From a virus, in IMG/VR virus record IMGVR_UViG_3300017991_000083, positions 1-64,000 of that record: a DNA stretch of 64,000 bases. One strand, 5' to 3'. Below are positions 15,760 to 63,998 of the stretch, piece after piece. The position numbers and the translations under genes were made by a program. The notes below the pieces were generated by a model. That model worked only from the letters and a program-made list of their open reading frames with translations. It ran no database searches and was not told the origin of the DNA. How positions within the stretch are numbered: position 1 is the stretch's first letter; each line of letters starts with the position of its first letter.

Positions 15760-16456
15760 TCTGAGATCTCCTTTCTCGGGCCTTCCTACCCGCCTCCTTC
15801 TGTCGCCGGGGCCGTATCTTGTGGGGCGTGATGCCCTCGACATCGATGAGGCCCATGTGCATCGTGTCGCCGAGCAGGTCCGCTATCTTCGTCATCGTGA
15901 ACGATCGAGACGACAGCGCGTCTGTGACCTGCCTCAGAACGTCGCGGTGCCGCGTGCGCTGCCTGACCCGCAGAGCGGCCTCGCGATACTCATCGCAGAC
16001 CTTGACGATAGTCTCTCCGTGCTTGGCCGCGATCTCGTCGCGGACCACGTCGGCGGTCTTCTCGCTCGCCGCCGCGAGCTTCCTGGCCGTCGCGCTCACC
16101 AGGTCCTTTACCCGGTCCACGCTCGGCTTCTTGCCCTCCGAAACCTCAGCCCATCGGTAGAGGGTCTCTTTCGCAGAACCCTCCGTCGCATTGAGGTACT
16201 CCTGGGCCCGCGAAACGCGCTCCTCTGCATGTGCGAGCTGCGTACCGAAGAACGCCTTGGTGGCCGGCAGCTCGTCGAGCGCGTGCAGGACCTGGAACGG
16301 GTCCTCGCACCCGTCCCCCAGGGTCAGCATCTCGTCCAGGTCGACCCTGACGGTCTCCTTGCCTACAGGCAGGTCGAACACCCGCATCGAGGCAGGTAGC
16401 CTCAGGATCGAGAGCGAGTCTAGTTGGTGGAGCTTCTTGCTGGCTTCTCCGGCCAT
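15743..16456 (-). CDS. UvsY-like recombination mediator (coiled-coil)
   Basis: Helical protein with KKPSVDRVKD...Y.EA...DALSSR pattern; adjacent to SSB and RecA. Confidence 0.55.
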   Translation of the reverse strand: MAGEASKKLHQLDSLSILRLPASMRVFDLPVGKETVRVDLDEMLTLGDGCEDPFQVLHALDELPATKAFFGTQLAHAEERVSRAQEYLNATEGSAKETLYRWAEVSEGKKPSVDRVKDLVSATARKLAAASEKTADVVRDEIAAKHGETIVKVCDEYREAALRVRQRTRHRDVLRQVTDALSSRSFTMTKIADLLGDTMHMGLIDVEGITPHKIRPRRQKEAGRKARERRSQSGAGE

Positions 16457-18405
16457 ACACCCCCCTCGAGAAAGAATCCTAGTGCCGTGACTTCGTGATG
16501 GAGCTCGGCCGCTCGCGACCAGGGCTTCACCTTCTTCTGCCCGAACAGGTCGCCCTGGTATTCCGCGCCGGCGAGCGCCGCCCGCAGGTCCGCCATGAGC
16601 TGCCACCTGGGCTTATCCATGTAGTCGAACGCGCCGGCCACGACCAGCTTCTTCGTGAGCACAGGCGACAGGTCATTGAGCCTCATGACCGTCGACATGT
16701 CGGGGAAGTGCCGCTCCTGGCGCCGGAGCAGTGACGCCAGGGCTTTCTCCCCGACCCCCTTGATAGCAGTCAGTGGGACACGGATGCCCCCGTCCTCGAT
16801 GGCGAATCGGGCAGCGCTCTTCCGCACATCGATGGGCAGGACACGAATCCCCATCCTCCGGCACTCGTCGAGCCCGCGGACTATGGACCTATTCCTCTTC
16901 TCGTTCGCGCCCTCGAGCGCGTTGTTCAGGAACGCACACATGAACTCCGTCGGGTAGTGGACCCTGAGCCACATCGTCTTGTAGGACCACTTCCCGCCGT
17001 AGCAGACGGCGTGCGACTTGTTGAATGCGTAGCGCGTCGCCGACTCCATGCGCTCCCATATCTCATCGGCCACGTCAGCGGGCACAACGCCCTGACGCTG
17101 ACAGCCTTCGATGAACATATGCTTGATGGCCTGGACCTCGGACCCGCCGCGGGCGAGCTTCTTGCCGATCATCCTGCGCGTGCGGTCGGCCTCCGAGGTC
17201 GACATGCCGGCGAGGGCGCGACAGATCTCGATGAACTGCTCCTGGTAGACGATGATGCCGTAGGTGTCCGCCAGGATGGGCTCGAGCGACGGATGCAGAT
17301 AGTGGGGCGTCCTCGAGGCGTAGTCGGCGACGAAGTCGATGGCGCCAGGGCGGCCGACGGCCGAGAGGTCGTAGAGCTCCCGGAACGACCGCGGCTGAAC
17401 CTCGGCAACGGAACGGCGGGACGTCTCGGTGTCTATCTGGAATCCGCCGAGCACGTCGCCCGCACACACGGCGTCGTAGACGGCAACATCCTCGAAGTCG
17501 ATGTTGTTCAGGTCCTCCAGGGTGTGGGGCCCATCCTCGTCCTCGATGAGCGCGAGGCAGCCCATCACCATCGTTATCGAGTCGACGCCCAGGATATCGA
17601 ACTTCACGAGTCCGAGCTTCTCGACCTGGTCCTTGTCCCACTGCGTCATGTAGACCTTTTCGCCGCCCGAGTCTGTGATGCGGAGCGGCATCAGAGTGTC
17701 GATAGGCGCCGGCGCTATCACCACGCCGGCCGCGTGTCGGCCCGTGTGTCGCGGCCTCGCGAGCAGGGTCTGGACCAGCTCGTAGAGGCCAGGATGCTTC
17801 TCGAGGTAGACCTTCAGCCGGTCGGGGTCGTCTGCATCGTCGAGCGTCAAAGGCTTGCCAGTCTCCTTGTCGACGTACTCTCCGTAGCGGAAGCAGGACT
17901 TGACCTTCTCGAGCGTCACCTGCGGGACCCTCAGAGTCCGCCCGGCCTCGTCGATGGCGCCACGGAGCCCGAAGGTCGCGAACGAGATGATCTGAGCGAC
18001 GTGCCGGGAACCGTACGTGTCCCTGATGTAGTCGAAGATCTCCTGGCGACGGCTATGCTGGAAGTCGAGGTCGATGTCCGGGGGACTGACTCTGGCGGGG
18101 TTCAGAAACCGCTCGAAGACCAGCCCGAACTCGAGCGGGTCCAGGTGCGTCACCCTGAGGCAGTAGCAGACGCAGGACGCCGGAGCGCTCCCGCGCCCGT
18201 CGTTCATGCCGATGCCCTGCTCTCGGGCGAATCGGCAGAGGTCGTAGGCTATCAGGAAGTACGGCGCCCACCCGCCCTCTTTGATGACCGAGAGCTCGTA
18301 GTTGCAGCGCTCCTCGTGCGCGGGCGTCAGTGCCCGGTCACGCAGGCCCTGGGTGGTGAGCATGGCGAGATGCTGCATGGGATCGCCAGGAAATGCCTTC
18401 TTCAC
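16420..18405 (-). CDS. dnaE: DNA polymerase III alpha, catalytic part (palm/thumb/fingers/HhH)
   Basis: GRGSA, FERFLNP.R..PPDIDLDF, HAAGVVI, KFDILG, YAFNKSHA, AIKGVG; clamp-binding motif QGDLF. Confidence 0.95.
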   Translation of the reverse strand: MKKAFPGDPMQHLAMLTTQGLRDRALTPAHEERCNYELSVIKEGGWAPYFLIAYDLCRFAREQGIGMNDGRGSAPASCVCYCLRVTHLDPLEFGLVFERFLNPARVSPPDIDLDFQHSRRQEIFDYIRDTYGSRHVAQIISFATFGLRGAIDEAGRTLRVPQVTLEKVKSCFRYGEYVDKETGKPLTLDDADDPDRLKVYLEKHPGLYELVQTLLARPRHTGRHAAGVVIAPAPIDTLMPLRITDSGGEKVYMTQWDKDQVEKLGLVKFDILGVDSITMVMGCLALIEDEDGPHTLEDLNNIDFEDVAVYDAVCAGDVLGGFQIDTETSRRSVAEVQPRSFRELYDLSAVGRPGAIDFVADYASRTPHYLHPSLEPILADTYGIIVYQEQFIEICRALAGMSTSEADRTRRMIGKKLARGGSEVQAIKHMFIEGCQRQGVVPADVADEIWERMESATRYAFNKSHAVCYGGKWSYKTMWLRVHYPTEFMCAFLNNALEGANEKRNRSIVRGLDECRRMGIRVLPIDVRKSAARFAIEDGGIRVPLTAIKGVGEKALASLLRRQERHFPDMSTVMRLNDLSPVLTKKLVVAGAFDYMDKPRWQLMADLRAALAGAEYQGDLFGQKKVKPWSRAAELHHEVTALGFFLEGGVWPEKPARSSTN

Positions 18406-18902
18406 TGCCCCCGTCTTTCTCGCTTGTAGAGGTCCGTGATGTCCTCAAGCGTCACATCGTCGGCTGAGACTGCAAGCGGCCGCAACTTGTCTCCGACGGC
18501 GGAGCGCTCGGCGGCCCCTGCCCTGGAGCTTTGCCCCCCCGCCTCAGGCTGACTGCCAGCGGTTATGGGAGCCTCGCCCGCGGGCGGAGCCGGTCGAGCG
18601 CCCGCCTGACGGTCGGCCTCATACCCCTCCCCCGGCAGAAGCCGAAACGGTTCGTCGCCGGCGCCGCCTAGAACGTCAATCCCCCTCTTCTTCGTCCGGT
18701 GAAGGACCGTATCCACGAGAGCGCGATGGTCGCGGCTCTCGATCTGCGATTCGACCACCGCTATCAGCTCGTTCCTCGTGTAGCCCAGGCGCAACAGCTC
18801 GAATACCTTGTACTGCTTCCCTGGTCGGAACGGATTGGGCGCCTCGGCTGCAAACTTGCTCGAGGGCTCCGGGTGGCGGGCGGTCCCATTGTCACCAGCC
18901 AT
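18402..18902 (-). CDS. Winged-helix-like DNA-binding protein between the dnaE halves
   Basis: NPFRPGKQYKVFELLRLGYTRNELI... plus an Ala/Pro-rich linker; GTGA coupling to dnaE-C. Confidence 0.65.
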   Translation of the reverse strand: MAGDNGTARHPEPSSKFAAEAPNPFRPGKQYKVFELLRLGYTRNELIAVVESQIESRDHRALVDTVLHRTKKRGIDVLGGAGDEPFRLLPGEGYEADRQAGARPAPPAGEAPITAGSQPEAGGQSSRAGAAERSAVGDKLRPLAVSADDVTLEDITDLYKRERRGQ

Positions 18903-18958: not shown

Positions 18959-19825
18959 TCAGGCGGTTTCTGCGCTCCTGAACGTCGGATACTTCGGCGA
19001 AGTGTCCATTTTGACGTGCATAACGCTATCTGCGATGGCCACAGCCCGGTCCATCGCTTCCGCCAGGAAGCCCCGGTCCATGTCCGAGTAGACGTTCCGG
19101 AAGGTCTCACAGAGCTCGGCGCGGGTCTTGAGCCAGAGATTCGACGTGTTCGCCTCCAGCCGACCCTTCGTGTTCACGAGCATGATGTCCTTGTGCATCT
19201 TCACCTGCGACCGGGTCGCGTAGTGGACGTCGTTCGTCACGACGACAGGAACCCCGTGCTTCCTCGAGAAGTCCACGATCTGATAATTCAGCTCATGGAC
19301 CTCAGGGATTGCGAGGGGCATCAGCTCGATGAACGCACGGTCGGGGAACATCTCGGCGAGCTGGCGATAGAACGCCAGAGCCCCGGCCTCATCGCCGGCT
19401 GCCAGAAGTCGCTGTATCTTGCCCATCATGCAGCCGCCAAGCACGACGAGACCCTCGGCATAGGTGCCGAGGGTCTCCAGGTCGATGCGCGGGCGACGAA
19501 AGAACCCTTCAACGAAGCTCGCGGTCGAGAGCTTGCACAGGTTCTCGTAGCCCTTCTTCGTTCTAGCGAGCACGGTCAGGTGCGTGACCGGGCCCTTCTC
19601 GGAGAGGTCGTCCGCCAGGTAGAACTCGCACCCGAAGATCGGCTTGACCTTGTGGCGCTCACAGGCCATCGCATGGTCGAACGTCCCGTACATATTCCCG
19701 TGGTCCGTCAGCGCGAGAGCCGACATCTTCTTCGCCGCCGCGGCCAGTGCGAGCTCGTCAGGAGAGCAGACCCCGTCGAGGAGCGAATACCAGGAGTGGA
19801 CGTGTAGGTGGACAAATGGTCTCAT
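18959..19825 (-). CDS. dnaE: DNA polymerase III alpha, N-terminal PHP domain as a separate gene
   Basis: FVHLHVHSWYSLLDG, ALTDHG, PIFGCE, HLTVLA, TNDVHY; ends at ...PKYPTF. Confidence 0.93.
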   Translation of the reverse strand: MRPFVHLHVHSWYSLLDGVCSPDELALAAAAKKMSALALTDHGNMYGTFDHAMACERHKVKPIFGCEFYLADDLSEKGPVTHLTVLARTKKGYENLCKLSTASFVEGFFRRPRIDLETLGTYAEGLVVLGGCMMGKIQRLLAAGDEAGALAFYRQLAEMFPDRAFIELMPLAIPEVHELNYQIVDFSRKHGVPVVVTNDVHYATRSQVKMHKDIMLVNTKGRLEANTSNLWLKTRAELCETFRNVYSDMDRGFLAEAMDRAVAIADSVMHVKMDTSPKYPTFRSAETA

Positions 19826-20037
19826 GCCTTGTGTAGGAACCCCTCTCTCACGAACCGCTTGATCTTGCCCTTCTCGCTCTTCGGACACCCGTCGACCTCG
19901 CACGACGCCGCGATGCCGTAGACGCCCATCGGATAGAACATGTAGTAGTCAGCATCATCCGGCAGCGCCGACAGCGACGTGATGATCGCGATGCGCGTGC
20001 CGGCCGGTGTCTCGAACACGAGCGGCGGGCGTTTCAG
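19822..20037 (-). CDS. Hypothetical protein (start uncertain: CTG 20037 or GTG 20019)
   Basis: ATGA coupling to dnaE-N; AGGAGG 7 nt before the CTG. Confidence 0.5.
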   Translation of the reverse strand: MKRPPLVFETPAGTRIAIITSLSALPDDADYYMFYPMGVYGIAASCEVDGCPKSEKGKIKRFVREGFLHKA

Positions 20038-58378: not shown

Positions 58379-59122
58379 CTACGACCGCGAATGCAGGTGC
58401 ATCCAGCGGCTGAGCAGTGCCTTCCGAACGTCCTTGTCCAGAGACTTGAAGACGTCCGCGTCGTCCTCGCCGATGTCCATCAGGGTCTCGTCCGGGACGT
58501 CCTCGGCCTTCTTCACCTTGCTGAAGTCAAAGCCCTCGGAAGCGTCCACGTCGGCGCCCTTCTCAACCAGACGGCTACGCTTCCCGACCCTGACGATCTC
58601 CAGCTCGGACATGCGCTTGGCGACCCCGGCCTCCACGGCCTTGGCGATCCGCTTGTCCAGATCCTCGCCGAGCTTCTTGACGAGAGAAGTCGTAAGAGCC
58701 TCGACGTCGACGGACTTCTCAGCGGCATCGTCTTCCTCCTCCTCCTCCTCCTCCTCCTCTTCCTCTTCCTCGTCGTCATCGCCGCCCTCGTCCTCGTCGT
58801 CCTCGGGCTCTTCCTCCTCGTCGTCCTCGCCCTCTTCGTCCTCGGTCTCCTCGGCCTCTTCCTCCTCGTCGTCCTCAGACTCGTCGTCGCCCTCGTCGAC
58901 CTCTTCGGTCTCCTCGGCCTCCTCCTCGCCCTCGGTCTCCTCGGTCTCTTCGGTCTCCTCGGTTTCCTCGGCCTCGTCAAGGGCCTTGCCGAACGCCTCG
59001 GCGAGCGCGTCCTCTACCGCGCCCTCGAGATCAGGCATGATCTCCGCCTTCGCAAGCTGGACGATCTCGCCCAGGTTGATGAGATCGATACCGCCGGCCT
59101 CGTCCTTGCTCTTCTTCGCCAA
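58379..59122 (-). CDS. Scaffolding protein with long poly-E/D tract
   Basis: Lies between protease and capsid genes; low-complexity acidic core. Confidence 0.75.
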   Translation of the reverse strand: MAKKSKDEAGGIDLINLGEIVQLAKAEIMPDLEGAVEDALAEAFGKALDEAEETEETEETEETEGEEEAEETEEVDEGDDESEDDEEEEAEETEDEEGEDDEEEEPEDDEDEGGDDDEEEEEEEEEEEEEDDAAEKSVDVEALTTSLVKKLGEDLDKRIAKAVEAGVAKRMSELEIVRVGKRSRLVEKGADVDASEGFDFSKVKKAEDVPDETLMDIGEDDADVFKSLDKDVRKALLSRWMHLHSRS

Positions 59123-59163: not shown

Positions 59164-60981
59164 TCACTGCTGGTATGGCTCCTGGCCGAACAGGTCGCTC
59201 ACGACCTTCCCGATGAGCTCTGAGCCGATATGGCCCATGCTCGTACTGATCGCCTTCCGGAGAGCCACCTTCTGGTTGCCGTCCAGATTGCGTATGTCGA
59301 TGTCCTTCGCGAGCCTCACGATCGCACTGCGAAGCTCATCGAGAACGTCCGTGTCCTTCAGGACGTACTCGACACTGCACTTCACACAGAGCTCTATGCC
59401 CTCGCGTGCCACGCTCTTCTCGAGGCCGAGAGCCTTCCTGTGCCTCTGGACGTGCTGGATCGCAGCCTGCGGGCCGCGCTGACCAGACCTGGCGCCCATA
59501 AGGGCACTCCAGGCCGCGATGACGCCGCCACGATGGCACAGCATGTCGCCCGTCGTGTAGACGCCAAGGTCACTCAGCTTGCCGCCTCCCTTCACCCAAT
59601 GATGGGGGTACTTCCAGGTCGACTTCTTGTTCGCTTCCCCGGTGACGGCATGTGCGCCGCGGGGGAGCTTCGTCTTGTCGACGCTGCCCCACGAGGGCTC
59701 ATTGGAGTCGATCTTGCTGTTGTGAGTCAGAGCCTTGTCCATGCGCTCACCGTCGTCGCTCTTCGCCATCTCCGCCGACTCGTCACCGTCCGCGTCGTCC
59801 TCGTCCTCGACCTCGTCGTCAAGACCGCCTCGGAACGACTTGACGGCTCGGACCAGGGACAGGTCCTCGGCATCCGGATTCGAGGGCATCGATGTGATGG
59901 AGTACTCGGCGAGCTCGCCGTCCATGATCGTCGGGACCTCTCTGCCGTGTTCCTGGTAGAAGACGTCCTCGACCTTCGTCACCCATCCCGCCACGGAATA
60001 CCCAAGGGTCGTTCCGTGCTCGAGCTTCATGACGATGTCCGACACTACCCTGTTGCCACGTTCCTTGACGGGATCCCACTGCGGCTCGAGATGGGTCCAG
60101 GCCTTGAACGCCCGTCCATCCCTGATGAGCTCGGTCTCCGTGCAGACCCCGACTGTGTGCTGGATTCCGTACCTGTGCTCCTCGTAGACGTTCAGTCCCT
60201 TGGCCATCGCAGCCATCTTCTGAACGAACGCCGCGGCCATGATCTCCCCGTCACGGTCGAGCGAATCGCTGCTCGCGATGCCGCAGACGTAGAGCCCGTC
60301 CTTCCGCTTCTCGAGAATGCACTTGCTTCCGCCCTCGGCATTCTTGGCCATCTCGAACGGGACGAAGACCCGGAAGTAGCCGGGGCGCTTCCTGCGCCGC
60401 TTCTCTTCCTGTTCCCATTCCCGGTCGAGATCCTTGGGGCTCGAGCTCTTCATGATGACCCCCTTAGTGTCCAGGTCCAGGGGCTCGCCATCCGCGCACT
60501 GGTGCAGTGCCTTCGTGAGAGCCTCGCCCATCCGACGGCGCCGGCCGTGCCGGCGGCTCTTCTTGTAGTGCCATTCGCCGTCGTAGTAGCTGTAGAGCTT
60601 CTTGACCGCGTCCCACGCCTCGTTGCAGCGCCGTTCGCGGGATGATGCCGTGCTCCGGTTGTAGACGTCAGCCCACAGCTTCATGCCGAAGATGGGGAGC
60701 TCCTGCACGTCGTCGGGGAGCTCGTCGGATCGTTGGTAGGTGTCCTGCAGAGGGACTCGGGTCTTCTTCGCGTGCCAGCGACCGTCCTCGAGATAGAACC
60801 GGCGCCGGACGGCACGCCAGCCGGCGTCGTCACACAGCTTCGCCTGATCCGCGCCATTCTTGAACGGCCGATTCGATCGGGCGTTGTATCCGAAGACGTA
60901 GGCTTTCTGAACGCCTGGCCCATGCGTTTTGACCGCATCGGGCACGTCACCAGGGAAGCTGAGCTTCGCTATCTTGGACAT
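59164..60981 (-). CDS. Prohead protease fused to two ChaB-like domains and a C-terminal domain
   Basis: ELPDDVQEL..GMKLWADVYN...AW.AVKK.Y...DG.W (ChaB-like, twice); GIASSDSLDRDGE, EEH, YSVAG, EYSITSMPSNPDA (HK97-type protease); ATG at 60981. Confidence 0.85.
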   Translation of the reverse strand: MSKIAKLSFPGDVPDAVKTHGPGVQKAYVFGYNARSNRPFKNGADQAKLCDDAGWRAVRRRFYLEDGRWHAKKTRVPLQDTYQRSDELPDDVQELPIFGMKLWADVYNRSTASSRERRCNEAWDAVKKLYSYYDGEWHYKKSRRHGRRRRMGEALTKALHQCADGEPLDLDTKGVIMKSSSPKDLDREWEQEEKRRRKRPGYFRVFVPFEMAKNAEGGSKCILEKRKDGLYVCGIASSDSLDRDGEIMAAAFVQKMAAMAKGLNVYEEHRYGIQHTVGVCTETELIRDGRAFKAWTHLEPQWDPVKERGNRVVSDIVMKLEHGTTLGYSVAGWVTKVEDVFYQEHGREVPTIMDGELAEYSITSMPSNPDAEDLSLVRAVKSFRGGLDDEVEDEDDADGDESAEMAKSDDGERMDKALTHNSKIDSNEPSWGSVDKTKLPRGAHAVTGEANKKSTWKYPHHWVKGGGKLSDLGVYTTGDMLCHRGGVIAAWSALMGARSGQRGPQAAIQHVQRHRKALGLEKSVAREGIELCVKCSVEYVLKDTDVLDELRSAIVRLAKDIDIRNLDGNQKVALRKAISTSMGHIGSELIGKVVSDLFGQEPYQQ

Positions 60982-60999
60982 CCGAACCCTCTCTCTTGG

Positions 61000-61066
61000 C
61001 TGTTCAACATCTGAACACCTACTCTGCATAAGGGCTTCGTCAACTGTAAGCAAGACTGAAAGTGCT
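61000..61066 (-). promoter_or_regulatory. Late control region: 23-bp motif AGCACTTTCAGTCTTGCTTACAG plus palindrome CTGTTCA-ACATC-TGAACAC
   Basis: Matches 48924-48960 and 3221-3239. Confidence 0.65.
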
Positions 61067-62570
61067 ACGCCGGGCGTCTGAGACCGGCGATCTTATACTC
61101 TCCGCCCCTCAGTCGAGACACGACGATGTCGTTCTGGTGCGACTTCTGTGTCACGTCCTGGATGAACTCGAGTGTCATGCGCCGGCCCTCGTCGGTATCG
61201 GTGTGCTCGGCCTCCTGATGTACATAGGACTCCAGGTCTTCCCGCCCGACGATGGCGAGCATCCGGTTGAACACCTGATGCTGGAGCGTCCCGGTCTCGA
61301 AGGGGTTCTTCACGTCCTCGGGCGGCGCGGTCATCATGTAGTAGGCAACCGCGTTCCGCCAGGCGAGCTCGGTCATGGCCTCGAGCTGCTCCGGCGTTGA
61401 CTCCTCGAGTGCCGACGGGGGCAGGGCCTTCTCGACGTACGGTCGAGGATCGAGTCCAAGCAGCTCGATCAGCGGCAGCATCTCGGCGTGATCTGCCAGG
61501 GACCAGCCCGGGCCCAGGATCTGGTAGCTGAGCTCGAGCGCTTCCGGCCCTGCCTCTGGCACGGCGATCTCGAACATGAGCTCGGTCGGCTCCCCAATGA
61601 CGGGTCGCCAGGTGCAGCGGCACCGGCAGTGCAGGGGCAGCATCCCCGATGCGTCCTCGACGGAATAGACCTGATCGTGTTCCGCAAGGCAATCGGGGCA
61701 TGTGCGATGGTCGTCGGTCGCCGTGTACTGGACGTAGCCGACACCCGTCTGCCGGTAGCCCTCGAGCTTCCCCTCGTTGTACCAGCGCAGGACCTCGGTC
61801 CTGGCCGTGATAGTCGCCCAATTCGAGGCCTCCAGGTTGTACTCGTAGCCGCGGCGTAGAACCTCGTCAGTCACGGGGTCGATGAGCGGCTCTACCGCGA
61901 TCGGGATGGGCTTGTTCCAGACCGCCAGGATGCGATCGCGGATCACCGGGATGGACTCGCCCTGGCGCAGCCCCTCGACGAGTGCCGCCTTGATCTGGTC
62001 CGAGATGTGCAGTGCGATGTGCGCCGAGAGCTGCAGGATGTACTCTTCGGCTATCTGGACGGTCAGCGGATCGCGCATCTCGAACTCGATGGGGATCTCG
62101 AACTCGGCGAACGCGCTGTCGCCGCCGGCCTTCAGGGCCTCGAACAGGTTCGCGGCGAAGATGTTGCGGTAGGGCTCGTAGTCGACATAGCTGATGGTCC
62201 TGATGGCATCGGACGCGATGTCCTGCTTCTGGAGCCATCGGCGGACGGGTGCCGGCATGGGCCGGCGCTCGAAGACGGTCTCGATCTGGTAGGGATGCTT
62301 CCAGGGGAACTCTTTGACTCGCTTCTCGACCTTGCGGCCCTTGAGGTAGCTGAAGGCCTCTTTCCTGGCCTTTTCGGTCATGTGCTTATCGAACAGGGCC
62401 AGGCACCGATCGCGCTGAGTCTCGAGGACGCGCATGAGCGCGACCTCTATCCAGAGCTGCTGGAGCATCGTCCACTGGTAGAGGGGCGCATCGGGATCGA
62501 AGAACCGATCCCACACGTCGACCCGGCGCGAGCCGGTTATCTGTTCTGCGAGCTGTTCCTTCAGCGGCAT
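61065..62570 (-). CDS. MuF/SPP1 gp7-like head morphogenesis protein with C-terminal extension
   Basis: ARTE, D.RTCPDC, PLHCRCRCTW; roughly 180 extra C-terminal residues. Confidence 0.9.
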   Translation of the reverse strand: MPLKEQLAEQITGSRRVDVWDRFFDPDAPLYQWTMLQQLWIEVALMRVLETQRDRCLALFDKHMTEKARKEAFSYLKGRKVEKRVKEFPWKHPYQIETVFERRPMPAPVRRWLQKQDIASDAIRTISYVDYEPYRNIFAANLFEALKAGGDSAFAEFEIPIEFEMRDPLTVQIAEEYILQLSAHIALHISDQIKAALVEGLRQGESIPVIRDRILAVWNKPIPIAVEPLIDPVTDEVLRRGYEYNLEASNWATITARTEVLRWYNEGKLEGYRQTGVGYVQYTATDDHRTCPDCLAEHDQVYSVEDASGMLPLHCRCRCTWRPVIGEPTELMFEIAVPEAGPEALELSYQILGPGWSLADHAEMLPLIELLGLDPRPYVEKALPPSALEESTPEQLEAMTELAWRNAVAYYMMTAPPEDVKNPFETGTLQHQVFNRMLAIVGREDLESYVHQEAEHTDTDEGRRMTLEFIQDVTQKSHQNDIVVSRLRGGEYKIAGLRRPA

Positions 62571-62573
62571 CGT

Positions 62574-63998
62574 CTAGCCCAGGCCCCCGGGCTGCAGAAA
62601 GAGCTTGTTCAGGGCGCTCTCGCGCCTCGAGAGGTAACGCACGATCCCGAGCTCGACTTCGGTCTCATCCAGACCCTCGAGGCCTGGCGAGGACATCAGA
62701 GCATCATGCGATACCATCTTGGCCGCCGCCGGCATCTGGCCCGTAGCGGCCAGGGTCGCGGCCATGTCGACCGGAATGAAGTCAGACGAGATGAACGGCG
62801 TGTCCGCCCACTCCTCGTCGATGCGATCGAGACCAAGCTCCTCGCGGATCATGTTGATTGTGAGAGCGCCTATCTTCCAGTAGATCTCGTGGATCTTGGC
62901 GAGCTCCTCTTCGTCCTTCTGCAGGAACGCACGCCAGTCGAGATAGACGTCCCTGTAGCCGAAGCCTAGGTCGGACCAGATGACTTCCTGGTTGAAGTGG
63001 TGCTTGAACAGGCGCAGGTGCGGCGCCACAGCGTCGCGCTTGAACTGCTCCGTCTGCTCCTGCGAGTTCAGCTTGCCCGTGGTCTGGTCGACGACCCCCA
63101 GGATGAACGGGGGGACGCCGTACATCGCCGCGATCTTGAGCATGAGAACACGGCTGTACTCCTGGTACTGCATCTCGTTCTGTGTGTTGGCCACCTTGGC
63201 GAACTGGACGCCGCCGCCGGCCGTACCCAGGAGCAGGGGCCGGTGCGGGTTGCCACGGAGCTCGTGATCCCACCACTGGCGTATCCGGGTCATGGCCTCA
63301 TTCACGGTCCCGCTCGGCAGGCCACTGAACATGACAGCGAACCGCGGAGTGGCGTCGTTCGCGAAGAAGTCCAGGTTGTACTGCGATGCGTAGAGCTCCG
63401 CTGTCACCGTCTGGCGGAGACTCTCGAGCGGCGAGAGCGGGTAGATGCGCCCGGACTCGGGGTAGGCGTTCATGTAGATGAGCTCGTCGCTCGGGAACTT
63501 GGCGACGACCTTGCCGCCGCCGTCGACCTGGTGGTAGGCCTCGGCGAGGCTACGGAAGATGCCCCGGTTGTCGACGTTCAGCTTGACCGTCTGTGAGGGC
63601 ACCGAATAGAGCTCGAACGGGGTCTTGGTCCCCTTTCCGCTGACGGCCTTGACGACCTCCATCGCGCCGGCGCCGTAGATGAGAGAGTCCTTCGTCACGC
63701 GCTGACGGATGGCGCTGAAGCTCTCCGTCGTCGCGTTCGGGTTCGCGATGAAGTCCTCGATCTCTTCCTTGTGGCGCAGCGTTTCGTCGGAGACCTTACC
63801 GCCCTTCCCCGGGACCACCTTGACGATCGGCTCGACTGAGACGATCCGATTCGTTGTCCTGTCGACGCAGACGCGCACCCACACGTTCCCGACATACATC
63901 AGTCGCATCTCGACGTAGGACAGGCCCTTATAGAGCTGCTTCGTCGGGAGCTCCTGTGCGTGCGAGAACTCCGGACCTCCGATCACGCTCTCCTTGCC
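62574..63998 (-). CDS. Portal protein, HK97-like (probably 5'-partial)
   Basis: LSPLESL, FFANDATP, IAAMYGVPP..LG, TINMIREELGL; frame open to the window edge. Confidence 0.93.
   Translation of the reverse strand, partial: GKESVIGGPEFSHAQELPTKQLYKGLSYVEMRLMYVGNVWVRVCVDRTTNRIVSVEPIVKVVPGKGGKVSDETLRHKEEIEDFIANPNATTESFSAIRQRVTKDSLIYGAGAMEVVKAVSGKGTKTPFELYSVPSQTVKLNVDNRGIFRSLAEAYHQVDGGGKVVAKFPSDELIYMNAYPESGRIYPLSPLESLRQTVTAELYASQYNLDFFANDATPRFAVMFSGLPSGTVNEAMTRIRQWWDHELRGNPHRPLLLGTAGGGVQFAKVANTQNEMQYQEYSRVLMLKIAAMYGVPPFILGVVDQTTGKLNSQEQTEQFKRDAVAPHLRLFKHHFNQEVIWSDLGFGYRDVYLDWRAFLQKDEEELAKIHEIYWKIGALTINMIREELGLDRIDEEWADTPFISSDFIPVDMAATLAATGQMPAAAKMVSHDALMSSPGLEGLDETEVELGIVRYLSRRESALNKLFLQPGGLG

What the first reader, a model, noticed from the sequence alone, without database searches (positions are those of the whole stretch)
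61085..61307. MuF head protein carries a C-terminal domain homologous to the protein that interrupts dnaE
The MuF tail NPFETGTLQHQVFNRMLAIVGREDLESYVHQEAEHTD...TQK...DIV...EYKI aligns with NPFRPGK-QYKVFELLRLGYTRNELIAVVESQIESRD...TKK..IDV...PFRL (about 18836-18640), a winged-helix-like pattern. Known: MuF/gp7 proteins are packaged, bind portal and DNA, and often carry C-terminal toxin domains. Inference: here the cargo is a DNA-binding domain delivered with the genome, with a free paralog made later. The pair could act on the shared palindrome or the 26-bp arrays, forming a virion-delivered regulatory or genome-end-protection system.
Basis: partly seen in the sequence, partly recalled or inferred. 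Interest (0 to 1): 0.7.

Follow-up and report, generated by a model that had tools for sequence, protein, structure and literature searches.

The report
MuF tail weakly resembles replication winged-helix protein
A phage head protein (MuF) ends in an extra domain of about 80 residues that is probably, but not provably, a distant copy of the winged-helix domain of a small protein encoded between the two halves of the phage's split DNA polymerase; nothing shows that the two act together on DNA.

Summary
The alignment is at the stated coordinates. MuF aa 418-497 (61080-61319, minus strand) lines up with aa 19-90 of the 166-aa ORF 18402-18902, which lies between the PHP and polymerase-core genes of a split dnaE.

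**Sequence evidence is marginal.**
- Pairwise, the match is at chance level: BLASTP does not report it.
- Profiles improve it: hhalign P goes from 0.0028 to 0.0007 to 0.0003 as homologues are added.
- A winged-helix-only HMM of the small ORF's family finds MuF as the best non-self hit among 111 genome ORFs (E=0.0046).
- Identities concentrate on positions invariant in that family (P=0.006).

**Structure evidence is split.**
- The small ORF folds as a winged helix in AF2 and ESMFold models, and nearly all structural hits are winged helices.
- The MuF tail has the same helix-helix-helix-strand-strand order, in register (52/59 columns).
- However, its model is poor (pLDDT 58) and matches no winged helix.

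**The proposed function is not supported.**
- The MuF tail is acidic (pI about 5), whereas the free protein's domain is neutral to basic.
- The free gene is translationally coupled to the polymerase core, and a distant relative keeps it next to the split dnaE.

Homology is plausible, at roughly 50%. The proposed virion-delivered DNA-binding pair is unsupported. Both families are tiny orphans. The scan has unchecked notes of MuF-plus-winged-helix paralogue pairs in other genomes.

The parts
61065..62570 (-). MuF / SPP1-gp7-like minor head protein gene, 501 aa (P0001)
   Evidence: PF04233 on aa 192-320, 45.2 bits. TIGR01641, 54.4 bits. PHROG minor head protein families. One continuous ORF, kept at 502-504 aa in two orthologues.
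61587..61997 (-). MuF domain proper (aa 192-328)
   Evidence: Pfam, NCBIfam and PHROG matches all end near aa 320-331.
61419..61583 (-). Acidic, indel-rich linker (aa 330-384)
   Evidence: pI 4.05. It holds the only indels among the orthologues.
61320..61418 (-). Nearly invariant helix that opens the C-terminal domain (aa 385-417)
   Evidence: Nearly invariant in the four sequences. Modelled as a helix at aa 393-412. Not part of the match to the free ORF.
61080..61319 (-). Winged-helix-like block of the MuF tail (aa 418-497); contains the reported 61085-61307
   Evidence: Aligned to the free ORF by hhalign and hmmsearch. The AF2 model gives H-H-H-E-E at pLDDT 40-72. No winged-helix structural match.
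18402..18902 (-). 166-aa ORF between the dnaE halves (P0002)
   Evidence: GGGAGA-type ribosome-binding site before the ATG. Its TGA overlaps the GTG of the polymerase core gene. Eight family members are known.
18627..18848 (-). Winged-helix domain of P0002 (aa 19-92)
   Evidence: AF2 gives H29-38, H43-53, H59-72, E75-78 and E87-90 at pLDDT about 80. Hits from the ESM Atlas model, Foldseek and VIA are almost all winged helices, Z 4.3-5.7.
18405..18602 (-). Disordered linker (aa 101-150) and conserved acidic C-terminal helix (aa 151-166) of P0002
   Evidence: pLDDT is below 50 for aa 101-153, with a helix at 152-164. The C-terminal motif is conserved in all eight members.
18959..19903 (-). dnaE N-terminal half: PHP-domain gene
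   Evidence: PF02811, E=9e-45.
16420..18405 (-). dnaE C-terminal half: Pol III alpha core (NTPase/palm, fingers, HhH)
   Evidence: PF07733, PF17657 and PF14579.
62574..63986 (-). Portal gene directly upstream of MuF
   Evidence: PF04860, E=3e-41.

Best explanation
The MuF minor head protein of this 91-kb phage has a lineage-specific C-terminal domain. The domain is one long helix followed by a three-helix, two-strand unit. That unit is most likely a much-diverged copy of the winged-helix domain of the small protein encoded between the split dnaE genes.

The free protein has a neutral-to-basic winged helix, a disordered linker and an acidic C-terminal helix. It is co-translated with the polymerase core. 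It probably works as a DNA-binding or tethering accessory of the phage replisome.

The MuF copy has become acidic and has lost the free protein's recognition-helix residues. It more likely serves as a protein-contact module than as a sequence-specific DNA binder. It would be carried into the capsid by the MuF-portal interaction and possibly released on infection.

Shown: gene identities, the winged-helix fold of the free protein, the translational coupling, the synteny and the weak profile-level similarity. Inferred: the homology itself (about 50%), packaging and ejection, and both functions.
For: - hhalign significance rises as independent homologues are added: P=0.0028, 0.00071, 0.00033.
- By hhalign each is the other's best non-self hit within the genome. 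MuF scores P=0.0018 against 0.025 for the next ORF; P0002 scores 0.0078 against 0.088.
- The winged-helix-only HMM finds MuF at E=0.0046 among 111 ORFs.
- The column-shuffle null is 11.9 +/- 2.3 (maximum 21.3) against an observed score of 29.1.
- Nine of the 15 identities fall on the 18 of 59 aligned positions that are invariant in the P0002 family, P=0.006.
- DSSP states of the two separately predicted AF2 models agree in 52 of 59 aligned columns, with the maximum at zero shift.
- P0002 is a winged helix.
- The stop of P0002 overlaps the start of the polymerase core gene.
- Locus L002, a relative of 33% identity, has the order PHP gene, PTPS gene, P0002 homologue.
- MuF proteins with C-terminal extensions of unknown domain are a recognised class (PMC5576092).
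Against: - Pairwise similarity is at chance level.
- hhalign probability is only 11-38%.
- The hypothesis was picked by eye from roughly 6000 possible protein pairs, so per-pair P values of 1e-3 to 1e-5 are not decisive.
- The reverse HMM search is not significant.
- A HMMER scan of 1.8 billion representatives with the P0002 profile found no MuF.
- The tail model has mean pLDDT 58. Neither it nor the ESM Atlas model matches any winged helix.
- The match rests mainly on helices 1 and 2 and the short motif before them; helix 3 is not conserved.
Confidence: 0.5

Rival explanations
1. Chance resemblance. The MuF tail is an unrelated, mostly helical, lineage-specific extension, for example a contact surface for portal, scaffold or packaged DNA. 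It shares a short motif and a common helix-helix-helix-hairpin pattern with a genuine winged-helix protein by coincidence.
For: - BLASTP is silent, and the Smith-Waterman score lies within the upper tail of shuffles.
- hhalign probability is at most 38%.
- The reverse HMM search gives E=2.2.
- The tail models from AF2 and ESMFold hit helical hairpins and bundles, not winged helices.
- The charge is opposite to that of P0002's domain.
- The pair was chosen post hoc from thousands of possible pairs.
Against:
- Identities are enriched at family-invariant positions.
- MuF is the top hit of the P0002 profile by two different methods, and P0002 is the top hit of the tail profile by hhalign.
- Secondary structure is in register over the whole domain.
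Confidence: 0.38
2. Both domains bind the same phage DNA motif (the palindrome, the 18-bp motif or the 26-bp arrays). The MuF copy is delivered with the genome as an immediate regulator or end protector, and the free copy takes over later.
For: - P0002 has a winged-helix fold and a neutral-to-basic domain.
- SPP1 gp7 is a portal-targeted DNA-binding protein that supports the start of infection (references cited in PMC6316719 and PMC5576092).
- A variant of the palindrome lies just downstream of MuF at 61000-61018.
Against: - The MuF tail is acidic in all orthologues, and the putative recognition helix is not conserved between the families.
- Nothing links either protein to any of the motifs.
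- The coupling of P0002 to the dnaE core and its synteny point to replication rather than transcription control.
Confidence: 0.08
3. The tail is a toxin or effector cargo of the MuF polymorphic-toxin type.
For: MuF proteins often carry C-terminal effector domains (PMC5576092, PMC5512222).
Against: - No toxin or enzyme family matches the tail in Pfam, PHROGs or NCBIfam.
- There is no small immunity-type ORF after the gene. The ORF that follows, as listed, is 629 aa and begins 11 nt after the MuF stop codon.
- The domain is small, with no conserved catalytic-looking residues.
Confidence: 0.04

Closest known systems
MuF proteins with a C-terminal extension of unknown domain (Jamet et al. 2017, PMC5576092)
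   Same: A MuF domain followed by about 170 extra residues, in a gene directly after the portal gene.
   Different: No recognisable toxin and no small downstream immunity-like ORF. The extension may be a winged-helix-like unit related to a replication-module protein of the same phage.
SPP1 gp7 (minor capsid protein; Stiege 2003 and Vinga 2006, as cited in PMC6316719)
   Same: Same family (TIGR01641 and PF04233) and same gene position.
   Different: gp7 is a short MuF without the extension. Portal binding and virion location are assumed here, not tested.
Polyvalent and MuF-fused effector proteins of phages (Iyer et al. 2017, PMC5512222)
   Same: MuF used as a carrier for an added C-terminal module. 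That paper notes rare DNA-binding modules (wHTH, HTH) in polyvalent proteins.
   Different: Only one added module is present. It is acidic and of uncertain fold, and no enzymatic domain accompanies it.
Winged-helix DNA-binding domains (Fur/PerR/Zur, MecI/BlaI, TFE-alpha, histone H5, MCM and ORC winged-helix domains)
   Same: P0002 aa 19-92 has the H1-H2-H3-hairpin topology and matches these structures (Z 4.3-5.7, rmsd about 2.3-3.6 A over 59-86 residues).
   Different: No sequence-level membership in any Pfam winged-helix or HTH family. It sits inside a split dnaE and carries a disordered linker and an acidic C-terminal helix.

Membership tests
MuF / SPP1 gp7 minor head protein (PF04233, TIGR01641) | Match to the family models above their curated cut-offs | tested here: met
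   PF04233 45.2 bits against 29.6; TIGR01641 54.4 bits against 39.65.
MuF / SPP1 gp7 minor head protein (PF04233, TIGR01641) | Gene placed next to the portal gene in the head module | tested here: met
   The portal gene (PF04860) ends at 62574 and MuF starts at 62570.
MuF / SPP1 gp7 minor head protein (PF04233, TIGR01641) | Bound to the portal and present in a few copies in the capsid | not testable with these tools
   Needs virion proteomics or cryo-EM.
MuF polymorphic toxins (Jamet 2017) | C-terminal extension beyond the MuF domain | tested here: met
   About 170 residues follow the end of the MuF models.
MuF polymorphic toxins (Jamet 2017) | Recognisable toxin domain in the extension | tested here: not met
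   No family matches the tail in Pfam (E up to 10), NCBIfam or PHROGs.
MuF polymorphic toxins (Jamet 2017) | Small immunity-type ORF immediately downstream | tested here: not met
   The next ORF as listed is 629 aa and contains a ChaB domain.
Winged-helix fold, free ORF P0002 | Three helices followed by a beta-hairpin wing, and structural matches to solved winged helices | tested here: met
   AF2 model at pLDDT about 80. Nearly all of the top 50 VIA hits, and the Foldseek and ESM Atlas hits, are winged helices, although Z is only 4.3-5.7.
Winged-helix fold, MuF tail | Same element order and structural matches to solved winged helices | tested here: inconclusive
   The element order H-H-H-E-E is present and in register. 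The model has pLDDT 58 and gives no winged-helix match.
One family: MuF tail and P0002 winged helix | Statistically significant sequence or profile similarity | tested here: inconclusive
   hhalign P=3e-4 to 3e-3, probability 11-38%. hmmsearch E=0.0046 within the genome in one direction and 2.2 in the other. Pairwise similarity is not significant.
One family: MuF tail and P0002 winged helix | Co-occurrence of both in related phages | not testable with these tools

The most novel reading that the evidence does not exclude
A phage duplicated the winged-helix module of a replisome accessory protein onto its portal-bound MuF protein. A copy would then enter the cell with the DNA and recruit the same partner (polymerase half, clamp or host factor) to the incoming genome before any phage gene is expressed. 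This would be virion-delivered priming of replication.
Probability: 0.1. Interest if true: 0.6.

Novelty: new member of a known kind. Interest (0 to 1): 0.3.

Why it matters
If the relationship is real, MuF carriers can deliver copies of the phage's own replication-module domains as well as toxins and enzymes. That would widen the known repertoire of virion-packaged cargo. It would also give a handle on the function of the small protein that is conserved inside the split dnaE of this orphan phage lineage. As it stands, the evidence supports only a plausible distant duplication with no demonstrated common function, so the finding is a modest curiosity.

Tried and rejected
**Searches that found nothing relevant**
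- BLASTP of the two proteins did not report the alignment.
- Pfam, PHROGs and NCBIfam on both domains gave no family.
- A PDB sequence search with the P0002 profile returned only low-complexity noise.
- A HMMER scan of 1.8 billion representatives with the P0002 profile found three clusters, all free proteins of 166-175 aa and no MuF.
- Word-indexed searches found only five close P0002 relatives and three MuF tails, one of them a fragment at a contig end.
- Scans of IMG/VR, JGI metagenomes and GTDB genomes, and tblastn of INPHARED, gave one distant P0002 relative (L002) and nothing else.
- Two degenerate DNA patterns for the shared motif, scanned in IMG/VR, gave one antisense chance match and none.
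- The Atlas search by language-model features gave no usable lead for either domain.

**Tests that could not be run**
- The two models could not be superposed directly, because model files are not exposed.

**Ideas rejected**
- An intein or homing-endonuclease origin for the dnaE insert. The three ORFs lie in three different frames (from the coordinates), P0002 matches no Pfam, PHROG or NCBIfam family, and its position is conserved.
- A third paralogue at G000 81796-82023. The match is weak and covers a different segment.

Full report
**What is there.**
The window is the first 64 kb of a complete 91,366-bp virus record with direct terminal repeats. ORF 61065-62570 on the minus strand encodes a 501-aa protein. 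It matches Phage_Mu_F (PF04233, 45.2 bits, aa 192-320), TIGR01641 phageSPP1_gp7 (54.4 bits) and many PHROG minor head protein families. It follows the portal gene (PF04860). All family matches stop near aa 320-331, so about 170 residues are an extension.

ORF 18402-18902 on the minus strand encodes a 166-aa protein, P0002. It lies between a PHP-domain ORF (18959-19903) and a Pol III alpha core ORF (16420-18405). The three ORFs are in three different frames. P0002 has its own ribosome-binding site, and its TGA overlaps the GTG start of the core gene.

**Is the similarity real?**
Pairwise, it is not distinguishable from chance.
- BLASTP does not report it.
- The best local alignment covers 40 columns and scores 43. 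It is reached by 27 of 500 whole-protein shuffles and by 10 of 2000 shuffles of the pre-selected segments.

Both families are tiny.
- P0002 has five close relatives (53-80% identity).
- It has two more distant relatives (30-35%), found by a full HMMER scan of 1.8 billion representatives. That scan did not find any MuF.
- The MuF tail has three relatives at 70-75% identity.

With these alignments the signal increases steadily.
- hhalign gives P=0.0028 with six P0002-family sequences.
- It gives 0.00071 with eight.
- It gives 0.00033 (probability 38%) when the MuF profile is cut to the tail.

I then compared each profile against a crude set of 111 ORFs from the whole genome.
- MuF is the best non-self hit of the P0002 profile: P=0.0018, with the next ORF at 0.025.
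- P0002 is the best non-self hit of the tail profile: P=0.0078, with the next ORF at 0.088.
- hmmsearch with a profile of the winged-helix part only gives MuF E=0.0046 for that set.
- The reverse search, with the shallow tail HMM, is not significant: E=2.2, rank 6.
- Column-shuffled P0002 profiles score 11.9 +/- 2.3 (maximum 21.3 of 300) against an observed score of 29.1.

Of the 15 identities in the hhalign alignment, 9 fall on the 18 of 59 aligned positions that are invariant in the P0002 family (hypergeometric P=0.006).

These results favour a true distant relationship. However, the pair was picked by eye from several thousand possible pairs, and the per-pair probabilities (about 1e-3 to 4e-5) do not settle the matter.

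**Fold.**
The P0002 model has aa 21-90 at pLDDT about 80. Its elements are H29-38, H43-53, H59-72, E75-78 and E87-90, followed by a disordered linker and a C-terminal helix.
- The ESM Atlas model hits FUR, PadR, HTH_11 and BlaI-type clusters.
- Foldseek hits against the PDB are Zur/Fur, histone H1/H5, MecI and similar proteins. None reaches E <= 0.001.
- An exhaustive VIA search returns almost only winged helices, at Z 4.3-5.7.
- BFVD hits are phage HTH proteins.

So the free protein's domain is a winged helix.

The MuF tail model (aa 380-501, four sequences) has mean pLDDT 58. It shows a long helix, then H-H-H-E-E. Over the hhalign columns, its DSSP states agree with those of P0002 in 52 of 59 positions, and agreement is maximal at zero shift. 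The three-dimensional model is another matter. It matches only helical hairpins and bundles in Foldseek and VIA, and the ESM Atlas model does no better.

**Function.**
- Charge: the P0002-family winged helices have pI 6.8-10.4, and the rest of the protein is acidic. The MuF tails have pI 4.9-5.7 in all four sequences.
- Where the match lies: it rests on a short motif before helix 1 and on helices 1 and 2. The putative recognition helix is not conserved between the families. Sequence-specific DNA binding by the MuF tail is thus not predicted.
- Gene context: P0002 is translationally coupled to the polymerase core. In the only distant relative with context, the 2.6-kb contig L002, the order is sigma-like gene, PHP gene, a PTPS/QueD gene, then the P0002 homologue. 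The association with the split dnaE is therefore conserved, which points to a replication role.
- Toxin cargo: no toxin family and no small immunity-like ORF accompany the MuF gene. The toxin-cargo reading of MuF extensions (PMC5576092, PMC5512222) does not apply here.
Nothing links it to either protein.

**Comparison with what is known.**
- MuF proteins with C-terminal extensions of unknown domain are a described class (PMC5576092).
- MuF is a known carrier of added modules, and DNA-binding modules occur rarely in the related polyvalent proteins (PMC5512222).
- SPP1 gp7 is a short MuF that is targeted to the procapsid by the portal and supports the start of infection (PMC6316719).
- This protein is a member of the MuF family with a new, orphan extension.
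- This scan holds unchecked first-reader notes of MuF proteins with winged-helix inserts paralogous to free ORFs in other genomes. These are leads only.

**Limits.**
- No relatives exist in IMG/VR, INPHARED or the GTDB genomes.
- The two models could not be superposed directly.

**Verdict.**
Homology is plausible, at about 50%. The proposed virion-delivered DNA-binding pair is unsupported. Interest is modest.

Noticed in passing
window 18402-18405: The stop codon of the 166-aa ORF overlaps the GTG start of the dnaE polymerase-core gene (GTGA). This implies translational coupling of the small winged-helix protein with the core half of the split polymerase.
   Followed up: partly
L002:691-2547: A distant relative on a JGI metagenome contig has the same split dnaE. 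There, a 6-pyruvoyl-tetrahydropterin synthase (PTPS/QueD-like) gene is inserted between the PHP gene and the P0002 homologue. The gap between the dnaE halves therefore accepts extra genes while the small ORF is kept.
   Followed up: partly
window 18405-18452: All eight members of the small-ORF family end in a conserved acidic amphipathic helix after a disordered linker of about 50 residues. This looks like a partner-binding tail, as in SSB-type proteins. The partner is unknown.
   Followed up: no
window 59164-61053: The 629-aa ORF directly after MuF contains a ChaB domain (PF06150, aa 112-164), which is unusual in a head module. The 1-mismatch copy of the palindrome (61000-61018) lies inside the listed 5' end of this ORF, so the true start may be further downstream.
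   Followed up: no
window 58379-59122: A 247-aa protein with long Glu/Asp runs lies between the ChaB-domain protein and the capsid region; it is likely a scaffold. No Pfam match.
   Followed up: no
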